A stretch of 64,000 bases of DNA from Euglena gracilis (GCA_039621445.1 CP154954.1:12022716-12086715); one strand, 5' to 3'. Counted from the stretch's first letter, positions 19,701-63,990 are shown. Made by a program: numbers and translations. Notes: generated from the sequence alone by a model not told the origin.

Positions 19701-22700
19701 GATGGACTACCATATGGTGGCACAAGGTGTCGACCTGAATTTACATGCACTGGCTTGTGTGTGTGTGTGTGTGTGTGTGTGATAATTGGCGGTTTTGCAT
19801 TGTTTATTATTGCAGCCTGTGCGCGTTCTTGCCCCTGCAGGAGCATGAATGTTCCCCTGACGCTGGAAAATGTGAAACCCAATGAACTCCTATGCTCGCA
19901 CCGCCCTTCCCTTGGAAACCCAATCCTGGGGGGGCAACTGAAACGGATTTTTTGTTTTTTGAAGGTGTGGCCAGGGCAAAAGCAGGTCAAAAGATTATAT
20001 TTTTTATTATGTTTATTTTTTTGAATTTTTTTATTATATTATTTTTTTAATATATTATATTATATTTATTTTTATATTATATTTTGCATAACTAGCCGTT
20101 TTTTGAGGTATTTTTGCAGCTTCTCAGTTTTTCAGTTTCTATATTATTTTGGTATTTGGTGTGACCCCCCAGTCGGACCGAGTTCCAGCCTGGGACCCCC
20201 GTATGAGGGTTCAGCCAGCAGCCATTTTCCCAAATTTGAACACGCTGGTCGGGGGGCCGGCTAGGAGGCGCTCCTCATCCTGGAGATGCTGCAGGCCATC
20301 AGCGACGGCGGCACCACCATCCTGCCATTCACGTCGCCGATGTGGCGAATCCTGCCCAGACTCTCTTTGGAGCTCCGTTGGAAAGAAAATGGAAGGTGCC
20401 TTGGCGTTGCTGTGCCTTTTGGTTTATATTATGCTTGGCATAATTATTCTTCATTTAAACACACGGTAATGTGATTTTCAATGTTTTTTGTCAGGTGTTT
20501 TACCCCCCTCCCCCCACCTTCTAGACCCTTGCCCAACAACCAACCCAATTTATCGACTGCCCCCCCCCGGTCGGAGGTTGCAGGCCAGGGGGCGTATATC
20601 CCCCCCCTGGTCCAGTGGTCGGGGGTTGTTAGAACCCGGTCGGTGGGCAAAGGGGGGGAAGGTACATTGTTCTTCGATGTGTTGCAATACAATTGTCCCC
20701 CGACGATCTTGTCACATACCCAGGCTGTGGTGGGCTGGGATACGGAAACAAGATCGGGGGGGAGGGTGGTACGTTTCAAAATGCACCCCAGTAACGAGCC
20801 CTGGTGGTGTGTTATCTGGTCCAGTTATTGTTTTGGCTTTGCTTTTTCCGTACTGTGGGCAAAGAGCTGCAAGAATCCTCTCGGCAGTACTGTGGGAGCC
20901 TGCATACGGCGGCTCTGCTTCAGAGTGACGCCCCAGAGCACGTCATCACCAGCGCCACGTATGTTGCCGCCGCACTGCAGGATGCCCGGGGGGCCAAGCA
21001 GGCACCGCCCTGCCATCTGTCCTGGCCATTTGCCCGTGACGGGGCGGTCGGCTGGGGGAACTTTGTGGCTGTAGCCCTGTTATCGTCTTTGCGGTTCCAC
21101 TCTTTGTTGGGAGAGCAACAGCACAATGATGAGCGCAGAATCATTGCTCATGTTTTCACATAATTATCGTGAAATTTTTGTATGGACCATCACCCCGCCC
21201 ACTTTCCCCCCCAAATCAAATGCATGTAATACAAATTCCATAATGACAGGTCATGTTGAATGTGCAAGAGTGCATTGACATCAGCAAAGAAACAGTGGCA
21301 CGAAGTGGATGGACAGCCCTTTCCCCCTGCGGAGACCTCCCGTCGGCGCCTGCCCCCGCCGAAGCGAAGCGGCTGATGCTGACCAACGGCTACCATGAGC
21401 CCCTGGCGGCGGCGCTCGGGAACTGCGCCATGTGCAGGGCTTTCCCTGAGAGCCGCTTCGAAAGGACCGCCTTTGGCCAAAGGCCCAGTCCCCAGTCAGG
21501 GGCTCCGACGGGGCCCAAAATGTAAAAGTAAAAAGCAACGAGTTGTTTGATTTCAAGGTTCCCGTCAAGTAATCTCGAGATTTCCCCGTTTTTTCCTTGT
21601 GGGTTTTTAGTGGAATGTGCCTGGACAGCAGACTCCTTTTCTCCCGCCCGTCCACGACCGCCCTGGCCATGTGGCTGCGGGTTGGACTGTCCGTCGTCCC
21701 TGCCGCCCCAATCATCTTCAGCCTGCAGATGATGCTGCCTGAGGCTTTGACCCACCAGGACAGCCTTTTTGTATGTATGTATTTGTGTTGTGTTGTGTTT
21801 GTATTGTATGCATTTTTTTGGTCCCCCCAGAAACTGTCGTGCCTCAGGCATCGTCCAACCTGTCACCATGGAAAGTTTCAGTGTCCCTGGTACTGGGCGA
21901 CATGTCAGGTGACAGTTGGTAATGGTTGTGACCATGTTGCTGCGAGTTCACTCCTGCTGGGGTTTCTGAAGCAATGGCAAATGGTGGAACGATGCAAACT
22001 CACCCGAGCCACCGGACACAAGCAATCAATCAATTTGAAACAGGAACGTAACACGCAACTTCCCTCGATCCACCAGCCAAACGTGCAATACAATAGCAGG
22101 TGCATGCCCATATTGTTTGTACCCATCATATATATGCCCACAGAGGCCCCAGGAAGGGCGGCCCGACCTGCTCCCTCAGCTTCACCACAAAGGCCTGCAG
22201 TGCGGTGTGGGCCGCCCTGCTGGACGTGTGCGATGTCCCCTCCGACCGTGCTGGCCGGGGCCTTGCCTCCACTGAGCTCCTCCAGGCTGTGGTGCATGTG
22301 GTGTGTGGTGTGTGGTGTGTGTGTAAGTGTGTGTGTGTCTGTGTGTGCAGCAAGTGTGTGTGTGTGTGTGTTTGCGTGTGTGTGCGTGTCTGTGCGTGCG
22401 CATTTGTGCCCGTATGCGTGCGTGGTGTGTGTGTGTGTGTGTGTGTGTGTGAAGTGTGTGGCATGTGCTGGTGTGGTGGGCAAGAGGGTGTGAGCGGGTG
22501 TGTGCCTTTTCTAATTCATGGATCTTTGCCGGCTATTTCATTTGTTTGTTTGCTCGTGCATTAGCTGAATGGTGAAATTCAATGGTTTCAAGGTTTGCAC
22601 CTCCATTGCCTCATATGAGCTGTGTTGCATTGACACCACTATCTGCCTGCTGGGTTGTTTTTTTTTGAGTTTTGAGCTCTTTGACCTGCTCTTACTTACT

Positions 22701-63990: not shown

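What the first reader, a model, noticed from the sequence alone, without database searches (positions are those of the whole stretch)
20996..63915. Apparent intron ageing series: TSD decays toward GGC-CAG ... CTG-CCCCC
Flank identity ranges from 8/8 (21432, 31101, 43675) through 6/8 (59219, 63270) to little or none (20996, 35859, 39393). Introns without a TSD repeatedly start with GGC (25872, 35859, 39393, 50176, 56327, 59465) and several end CTGCCCCC (21357, 36511, 39859), which adds G-C pairs at +1/-3 and +2/-4. Inference: after insertion, the intronic halves of the TSD drift or are selected toward stem extension.
Basis: inference. Interest (0 to 1): 0.7.

Follow-up and report, generated by a model that had tools for sequence, protein, structure and literature searches.

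The report
Fading insertion scars at Euglena introns
A few of the odd non-standard introns in this Euglena-type gene still carry the exact 8-base scar of a small transposon and most have lost it, which fits ageing, but the idea that their ends evolve to lengthen the RNA stem is not supported.

Summary
The window holds a long IQ-motif gene with euglenid nonconventional introns. Boundaries are my computational calls; I obtained no RNA evidence. Of 27 introns kept from 55 exon pairs, 4 have a perfect 8-bp duplication split 5|3 across the junctions (0 of 702 mismatched pairings do). Nine CA…TG-ended elements with 7–8/8 duplications lie away from splice junctions. Perfect-scar introns are shorter (p=0.008), and in published E. 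agilis tables the strain-specific intron scores 8/8 while 51 shared ones score 1–6. So scar decay with age is likely. A smooth series is not shown here: none scores 7/8, and the 21 introns under 6/8 match at chance (3.43 vs 3.26). GGC starts (9 of 27) and CCCCC ends (4 of 27) are truly enriched, but stem extension fails: pairs at +1/-3 and +2/-4 equal shuffled values, +3/-5 is depleted (3 vs 8.0), and the downstream exon shares the +3 C. GGC opens only 1 of 54 shared E. agilis introns. The scan found the 8-bp geometry (at least eight notes) and a similarly unproven age series before, on other DNA of this genome.

The parts
13720..64000 (+). Host gene: long multi-exon ORF with IQ motifs and a B-box-like exon; mixed GT/GC-AG and nonconventional introns; ends not defined
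   Evidence: exon frames; Pfam IQ passes cutoff at 63919-63990, below cutoff at 41163 and 46323, B-box below cutoff
21432..21670 (+). NC intron, 8/8 TSD, CAG…CTG, 239 nt
   Evidence: predicted
27420..27752 (+). NC intron/element, 8/8 TSD, CAG…GTG, 333 nt; alternative acceptor 3 nt later (27755, 5/8) scores slightly higher
   Evidence: second-ranked option chosen because of TIR and TSD
31101..31267 (+). NC intron, 8/8 TSD, CAA…ATG, 11 of 12 TIR pairs, 167 nt, internal 11-nt tandem repeat
43675..44055 (+). NC intron, 8/8 TSD, CAG…CTG, 381 nt; an IQ-type motif forms only across the junction
59219..59422 (+). NC intron, 6/8 (alternative acceptor 59398 gives 2/8)
63270..63915 (+). NC intron, 6/8 (alternative donor 63312 gives 2/8)
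20996..21357 (+). NC intron, 2/8, AAG start, CCCCC end
25872..26388 (+). NC intron, 4/8, GGC-CGG start
28849..29925 (+). NC intron, 4/8, GGC-CAG start, no extra spacer pairs
29995..31034 (+). NC intron, 5/8, GGC-CGG…CCG
33287..35767 (+). NC intron, 4/8, GGC-CGG…CTG, 2481 nt
35859..36511 (+). NC intron, 2/8, GGC start and CCCCC end
39393..39859 (+). NC intron, 5/8, GGC start and CCCCC end
40667..41147 (+).
56327..56669 (+). NC intron, 2/8, GGC-CGG start
59465..60318 (+). NC intron, 4/8, GGC-CAG start
16497..17348 (+). NC intron, 3/8 (moderate confidence)
17469..18072 (+). NC intron, 4/8 (moderate confidence)
18651..19453 (+). NC intron, 5/8
19542..20264 (+). NC intron, 2/8, CGG…CCG
20354..20907 (+). 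NC intron, 2/8
26473..26818 (+). NC intron, 2/8
31356..31856 (+). NC intron, 4/8 (GT-AG alternatives close)
44139..44470 (+). NC intron, 3/8 (moderate confidence)
53972..54314 (+). NC intron, 3/8, CAA…TTG termini with a perfect 8-bp inverted repeat
56770..57339 (+). NC intron, 4/8, CAG…ATG (moderate confidence)
60388..60733 (+). NC intron, 3/8, CAC…ATG (moderate confidence)
50176..50462 (+).
4618..4904 (.). Non-junction CAG…CTG element, TSD 8/8; relatives at about 52538-52799, 39122-39194, 28629-28702
7552..9675 (.). Non-junction CAG…TTG element, 2124 bp, TSD 8/8; no transposase domain in the ORFs scanned
11006..11399 (.). Non-junction CAG…CTG element, TSD 8/8
25041..25318 (.). CAG…CTG element inside an intron, TSD 7/8
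38978..39194 (.). CAG…CTG element inside an intron, TSD 7/8
43284..43454 (.). CAA…TTG element inside an intron, TSD 8/8
45760..46059 (.). CAG…CTG element inside an intron, TSD 8/8
47798..48097 (.). CAG…CTG element inside an intron, TSD 8/8
51661..52149 (.). CAG…CTG element inside an intron, TSD 7/8

Best explanation
These are euglenid nonconventional introns born from small CA…TG-ended DNA transposons (hAT-like MITEs) that duplicate 8 bp on insertion. Shown in the sequence: such elements with 8-bp duplications sit away from junctions, and four interrupt exons so that removing 3 nt + element + 5 nt takes out one copy of the duplication and restores the frame. Published: splicing needs a 3-nt and a 5-nt spacer, the CAG/CTG-type motif, pairing inside it, and a purine starting the next exon. 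Inferred: the spacers' length matters but their sequence barely does, so the intronic halves of the duplication drift until identity to the exon halves falls to chance, while the intron lengthens by nested insertions. Inferred: what persists is a weak junction preference (purine at +1, C at +3, pyrimidine at -1, on both junctions) laid on locally GC-rich ends (about 80% G+C); GGC and C-runs are the commonest words this yields in this gene. The stem is not lengthened; if anything the position next to it (+3/-5) stays open.
For: 4 of 27 perfect 8-mers, 0 of 702 mismatched pairings, only length 8 works. Nine non-junction CA…TG elements with 7-8/8 duplications. Spacer lengths 3 and 5, and no effect of single changes next to the motif, in PMC12501133. 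Perfect-TSD introns shorter, p=0.008. Strain-specific gapC intron 8/8, shared introns 1-6/8, hsp90 intron 5 scoring 1,4,6,5,4,4 across six strains (PMC4770533 supplement, by eye). +3 C in 16 of 21 intron halves and 14 of 21 exon halves against 6.7 expected; the symmetric Y|R and exon +3 C pattern is in PMC3935182, C at intron +3 in PMC11170887. Spacers 81-82% G+C against 54-57% at 41-70 nt inside. CGG termini only in TSD-poor introns, 5 of 21 vs 0 of 6, and none of 86 CG-ended inverted-repeat pairs has an 8-bp flank repeat.
Against: All boundaries are predictions and the scoring used the published R(+1)/Y(-1) priors. No direct age or copy number for any intron here; length is only a proxy and does not track TSD match over all 27 (Spearman -0.18, p=0.37). 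No intron has a terminal relative in the window (0 of 27). No transposase domain in 152 non-exon-targeted ORF submissions. Two published 8/8 introns sit at positions shared between genera (PMC3935182 supplement), so a shared position does not always mean a decayed scar. The intron-minus-exon C excess at -5..-1 is not significant (p=0.11).
Confidence: 0.6

Rival explanations
1. One reading: intronic TSD halves are selected toward GGC…CCCCC because this extends the terminal stem at +1/-3 and +2/-4.
For: GGC and CCCCC are enriched over decoys; GGC in 0 of 6 high-TSD vs 9 of 21 low-TSD introns, p=0.07; in 35859, 39393 and 40667 the constrained fold does form both pairs, about -2.6 kcal/mol.
Against: No excess pairing in any of 15 registers; in the 21 low-TSD introns +1/-3 is 6 against 8 for the exon copies, +3/-5 2 against 7, only +2/-4 rises (5 against 2, shuffled 6.3); only 3 of 9 GGC introns have both pairs; full-length fold of 39393 prefers another register; 1 of 54 and 0 of 54 in dated E. 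agilis rows.
Confidence: 0.1
2. Survivor filter: insertions land at many targets, but those whose 8-mer already reads like Y|RNC are spliced better and persist, so the consensus in old introns is inherited on both junctions rather than acquired.
For: Only 1 of 9 non-junction elements has Y|R at positions 5|6 on the + strand against most introns; exon +3 C is enriched in all phases, including 6 of 8 in phase 2; high-TSD introns have C at +3 in 1 of 6.
Against: Intronic halves match their own exon halves no better than other exons' (3.43 vs 3.26), so inheritance alone cannot keep 16 of 21 C at intron +3; some upkeep is needed.
Confidence: 0.3
3. Neutral GC pull: mutation bias or GC-biased gene conversion near GC-rich exons drives free spacer positions to G/C; GGC and C-runs are by-products.
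For: 28 of 38 positions that are A/T in the exon copy are G/C in the intron copy, 17 of 88 the reverse; G+C falls off with distance from the junction; E. agilis rows do not converge on GGC.
Against: It does not give the strand-specific choice of C over G at +3 (16 vs 2 of 21) or the enrichment over decoys in equally GC-rich surroundings.
Confidence: 0.2
4. No ageing: TSD-less introns arose by another route (older family with its own ends, break repair, or boundary sliding) and never had an 8-bp scar.
For: Distribution fits two classes as well as a continuum; no 7/8; PMC4770533 ascribes the 8-nt repeat to double-strand-break repair.
Against: GGC introns share nothing past the motif; homologous hsp90 intron 5 shows graded 1-6/8 identity; all keep the 3/5 geometry.
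Confidence: 0.15

Closest known systems
Euglenid nonconventional introns and the code 5'-N3CDG…CH'GN5-6|R (PMC12501133; PMC11170887; PMC3935182; PMC4770533)
   Same: 3-nt and 5-nt spacers, CAG/CGG…CTG/CCG, terminal pairing, purine at exon start, C at intron +3 and exon +3, direct repeats at junctions, mixed with GT-AG introns in one gene.
   Different: In the parts I read, these papers do not equate 3+5 with an 8-bp target duplication, nor test decay of the repeat with age or spacer pairing; five introns here have termini outside the strict code (CAA…ATG, CAA…TTG, CAG…GTG, CAG…ATG, CAC…ATG).
Recently gained E. agilis gapC intron 4 (PMC4770533)
   Same: Eight-nucleotide direct repeat, which the supplement shows is 8/8 in the 5|3 register with CA…TG ends.
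   Different: Authors propose double-strand-break repair; here non-junction elements of the same build point to transposition.
hAT-superfamily MITEs (e.g. Mar of Drosophila, PMC3517528)
   Same: 8-bp TSD, short TIRs starting CAG, no coding capacity, under 4 kb.
   Different: No transposase linked; target preference not established; here some copies serve as introns.
Merlin families of E. gracilis (PMC8101967)
   Same: 8-bp TSD, present in this genus.
   Different: Merlin TIRs start GG and are 24 bp or longer; the elements here start CA.
Introners of Micromonas and others (review PMC11282704)
   Same: MITE-derived introns whose splice sites use the TSD so that the message is restored.
   Different: Those are spliceosomal with short TSDs; these are removed by an unknown, apparently non-spliceosomal route.

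Membership tests
Euglenid nonconventional intron | C-D-G at +4..+6 paired with C-H-G at -8..-6 | tested here: met
   22 of 27 have CAG/CGG…CTG/CCG; 5 have CA…TG variants. Partly built into the search.
Euglenid nonconventional intron | Base pairing inside the motif | tested here: met
   7-11 of 12 in-register pairs; selected for by my scoring
Euglenid nonconventional intron | Purine at first base of next exon; reading frame restored | tested here: met
   required in search; junction translations open
Euglenid nonconventional intron | Removed from mRNA at these boundaries | not tested
   no reads could be laid; no spliced protein found (searches returned only genomic read-through ORFs of one exon)
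hAT-type MITE | 8-bp target site duplication | tested here: met
   4 of 27 introns 8/8; 9 non-junction elements 7-8/8; only length 8 gives perfect repeats
hAT-type MITE | Short TIRs (5-27 bp), often starting CAG; under 4 kb; non-coding | tested here: met
   criteria from PMC3517528 passages
hAT-type MITE | Multiple dispersed copies | tested here: inconclusive
   some non-junction elements have relatives in the window; none of 27 introns has a terminal relative; no genome held
hAT-type MITE | Matching autonomous hAT transposase | tested here: inconclusive
   no transposase domain in the ORFs scanned; rest of genome not searchable. P-type elements (CA termini, 7-8 bp TSD; recalled, not checked) are not excluded
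Merlin | Terminal 5'-GG and TIR of 24 bp or more | tested here: not met
   termini are CA…TG; criteria PMC8101967
   23 non-perfect introns mean 3.65 vs 3.16 (p=0.024), but 21 below 6/8 at chance (p=0.27); models not separable

The most novel reading that the evidence does not exclude
The 3+5 spacers are a fossil 8-bp transposon scar that the unknown splicing machinery now uses as a ruler, and ageing introns are tuned by a second-tier code: C at +3 after both cut sites and an unpaired +3/-5 position that ends the stem exactly at C+4:G-6. This would point to an enzyme reading two similar Y|RNC sites held at fixed distances from an open-ended helix, and would make TSD identity a genome-wide clock for intron gain. 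Basis: +3/-5 pairs 3 vs 8.0 (p=0.011 uncorrected, one of 15 registers; 3 vs 7.3 in the strict 20), same direction in published rows (7 of 51 vs 11.3 by hand, not independent).
Probability: 0.3. Interest if true: 0.6.

Novelty: new member of a known kind. Interest (0 to 1): 0.3.

Why it matters
Nonconventional introns are most of the introns in Euglena (71.8% in E. agilis, PMC12501133) and neither their origin nor their splicing enzyme is known. If scar identity in the 5|3 register dates each intron, the hundreds of thousands of annotated junctions become a time series of intron gain and of how a splice code is learnt. This window adds examples and rules out one proposed end state; it does not itself establish the series.

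Tried and rejected
Whole genome: none held, so no copy numbers. Sequencing runs were listed (no RNA holder listed as such), but no reads were laid, so junctions remain predictions. Protein searches with one 63-aa exon found no spliced product: none of 365 candidates at 112-2000 aa, one hit among representatives that is a genomic read-through. A global dynamic-programming gene model under the strict code missed the CAA…ATG intron and at least one exon near 23835-24000, and was replaced by per-junction ranking. The repeat finder was swamped by microsatellites. GGC introns as one element family: rejected, no similarity past the motif. A junction helix (+1/-1, +2/-2, exon-exon pair) suggested by the fold of 39393: no covariation (17 vs 18.5; 8 vs 8.8). 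G-U pairs as an age marker: 0.5 vs 0.95 per intron, p=0.12, not used. CCCCC as a special word: 4 observed vs 0.98 from column frequencies, but any 5-mer reaching 4 has p=0.027 and any 3-mer reaching 9 p=0.059, so the words mostly follow the single-position biases. Pfam scans for a transposase: none (only a subset of 493 ORFs of 75 aa or more was sent). Literature searches that did not show the 3+5=8 reading or an age test; subscription papers and figure panels (sequence logos) were not visible.

Full report
What the window is. From about 13.7 kb to the end the + strand carries one long, many-exon reading frame with IQ motifs (one passes the Pfam cutoff, two fall below) and a B-box-like exon below cutoff. 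Its introns are a mix of GT/GC-AG and the hairpin-ended nonconventional type of euglenids. I infer a Euglena genome from these features; the scan's own notes call it Euglena (unchecked). No genome was held and no RNA reads were laid, so every boundary below is a prediction.

How the intron set was made. For 55 adjacent exon pairs (2, 53) I ranked all in-frame donor/acceptor pairs by coding potential, pairing inside the motif and the published purine(+1)/pyrimidine(-1) priors. The score did not use the flank repeat, +2, +3 or -5..-2. One choice was informed by the repeat: 27420-27752 ranked second (11.1 vs 11.4). A strict set of 20 without it and six other weaker calls gives the same picture.

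The scar is real. Identity between the 8-mer at the left junction (5 exon + 3 intron bases) and at the right junction (5 intron + 3 exon) is 2/8 in 6 introns, 3/8 in 4, 4/8 in 7, 5/8 in 4, 6/8 in 2, 7/8 in none and 8/8 in 4. None of 702 mismatched pairings reaches 8/8, and of repeat lengths 3-12 only 8 gives a perfect repeat. Away from junctions, nine elements ending CA…TG carry 8/8 (six) or 7/8 (three) duplications (picked by eye from the list after discarding microsatellite hits). Knock-in work shows that splicing needs spacers of 3 and 5 nt (PMC12501133, main text parts 1-4 of 6 read). So element plus 3 plus 5 equals element plus one copy of an 8-bp duplication, and splicing restores the empty site. 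An 8-bp duplication with short CAG-starting TIRs is the hAT pattern (PMC3517528, passages); E. gracilis Merlin elements also make 8 bp but start GG (PMC8101967, passages). No transposase was found, so hAT is a resemblance, not a membership.

8/8 at 21432, 31101, 43675, 6/8 at 59219 and 63270, 2/8 at 20996 and 35859 are right; 39393 is 5/8. Both 6/8 calls have a close alternative boundary at 2/8.

Is there a series? Not demonstrably here. Without the four perfect cases the mean is 3.65 against 3.16 shuffled (p=0.024), but this rests on the two 6/8 cases; the 21 below 6/8 give 3.43 against 3.26 (p=0.27). A two-class model and an exponential-age model differ by about 1.3 log units. For ageing: perfect-scar introns are 167-381 nt against a median of 554 (p=0.008), though length and identity do not correlate over all 27 (p=0.37). 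Dated introns exist in print. In the supplement of PMC4770533 (whole file read; counts by eye) the intron found in one E. agilis strain is 8/8 in this register; 54 rows cover nine nonconventional positions shared by all six strains, of which I dropped 3 whose 5' halves repeat those of another position, and the 51 left score 1-6, with hsp90 intron 5 at 1, 4, 6, 5, 4, 4. The paper itself notes the eight-nucleotide repeat and suggests break repair (passages). Against a simple reading, the supplement of PMC3935182 (both parts read) has two more 8/8 introns at positions shared between genera, where the other genus scores 3/8.

Are GGC and CCCCC real? Yes in this gene: GGC opens 9 of 23 comparable donors against 15 of 167 exon decoys and 5 of 60 nearby decoys; CCCCC closes 4 of 21 acceptors against 1 of 81 and 0 of 34. 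GGC is in 0 of 6 high-identity and 9 of 21 low-identity introns (p=0.07), but among the 21 the GGC introns do not have lower identity (mean 3.9 vs 3.1). The words largely follow single-position biases. They are not a genus-wide end state: 1 of 54 and 0 of 54 shared E. agilis rows, and the tubB position shared by four Euglena species starts with A in all listed rows, like its downstream exon.

Is the stem extended? No. Watson-Crick pairs, observed against shuffled, all 27: +1/-3 9 vs 9.4, +2/-4 6 vs 7.8, +3/-5 3 vs 8.0 (p=0.011 for a deficit). Shuffling keeps column composition, so I also compared the 21 low-identity introns with their exon copies as stand-ins for the original target: 6 vs 8, 5 vs 2, 2 vs 7. 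Folding gain from real spacers is -1.6 against -2.0 kcal/mol for exon copies (p=0.75); with exon flanks, real spacers are 1.1 kcal/mol less stable than spacers shuffled between introns (p=0.016). No register of 15 shows excess. In the knock-in study single changes next to the motif left splicing intact.

What does explain the pattern. In the 21 low-identity introns C is at +3 in 16 intron halves and 14 downstream-exon halves, against 6.7 expected from phase-matched exon sites; in the 6 high-identity introns it is 1 and 1. The same symmetric junction pattern is described in PMC3935182 (passages) and C at intron +3 in PMC11170887 (parts 2-3 of 4 read). Spacers are 81-82% G+C, falling to 54-57% at 41-70 nt inside. 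I therefore read GGC and C-runs as a weak two-sided junction preference on GC-rich ends, kept up after the scar has randomised, with survivor filtering and neutral GC pull as live contributors. CGG termini occur only in low-identity introns (5 of 21 vs 0 of 6), which fits RNA-level change CAG/CTG to CGG/CTG to CGG/CCG, an inference on small numbers.

Novelty. The intron type, its code, the MITE hypothesis and TSD-like repeats are in print (PMC11282704, passages; PMC12621601, passages). My searches did not show the explicit 3+5=8 reading or an age test, but figures, part 2 of the PMC12501133 SI and subscription papers were not seen. The scan has noted the 8-bp geometry in at least eight other places of this genome and one earlier age-series claim was judged not demonstrable; these are AI notes, not support. 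Verdict: real scars, probable ageing, wrong end state; the open +3/-5 position is the one new lead. Interest 0.3.

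Noticed in passing
window 31101-31267, 53972-54314, 27420-27752, 56770-57339, 60388-60733: Well-paired introns whose termini fall outside the strict CDG…CHG code (CAA…ATG, CAA…TTG, CAG…GTG, CAG…ATG, CAC…ATG); the constant part is CA…TG.
   Followed up: partly
window 19542, 25872, 29995, 33287, 56327: CGG termini only in introns without a scar, 4 of 5 preceded by GGC (p=0.03, post hoc); may be a G-U then compensatory path at RNA level.
   Followed up: partly
window 32828-33105: Near-perfect 278-bp palindromic element with GG termini and an 8-base palindromic flank; Merlin-like ends, or part of a longer inverted repeat.
   Followed up: no
window 35204-35430: Inverted-repeat element with a 10-base flank repeat and internal 9-10-nt tandem units; a different element type.
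   Followed up: no
window 26100-26290, 37850-38036, 38650-38740, 48850-48975: High-identity repeat family with G/C-run arms inside several introns (up to 97% identity).
   Followed up: no
window 5490-6770: Long tandem array of a unit of roughly 37 bases with open frames on the minus strand; Pfam hits are repeat artefacts.
   Followed up: partly
window 23835-24020: Probable exon missed by my coding model; 22925 looks like a GT donor, so the GGC-CAG at 22902 is probably a false donor.
   Followed up: no
window 41140-41160: CTGCCCCC is locally duplicated at the acceptor of intron 40667-41147; the second copy is followed by a pyrimidine and should not be used.
   Followed up: no
window 50454-50588: B-box-like zinc-finger exon inside an otherwise IQ and coiled-coil-like protein; no full-length relative found.
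   Followed up: partly
PMC4770533 supplementary Table S2, hsp90 position 9: Three rows repeat the 5' halves given for position 8, apparently a table error; left out of my counts.
   Followed up: no
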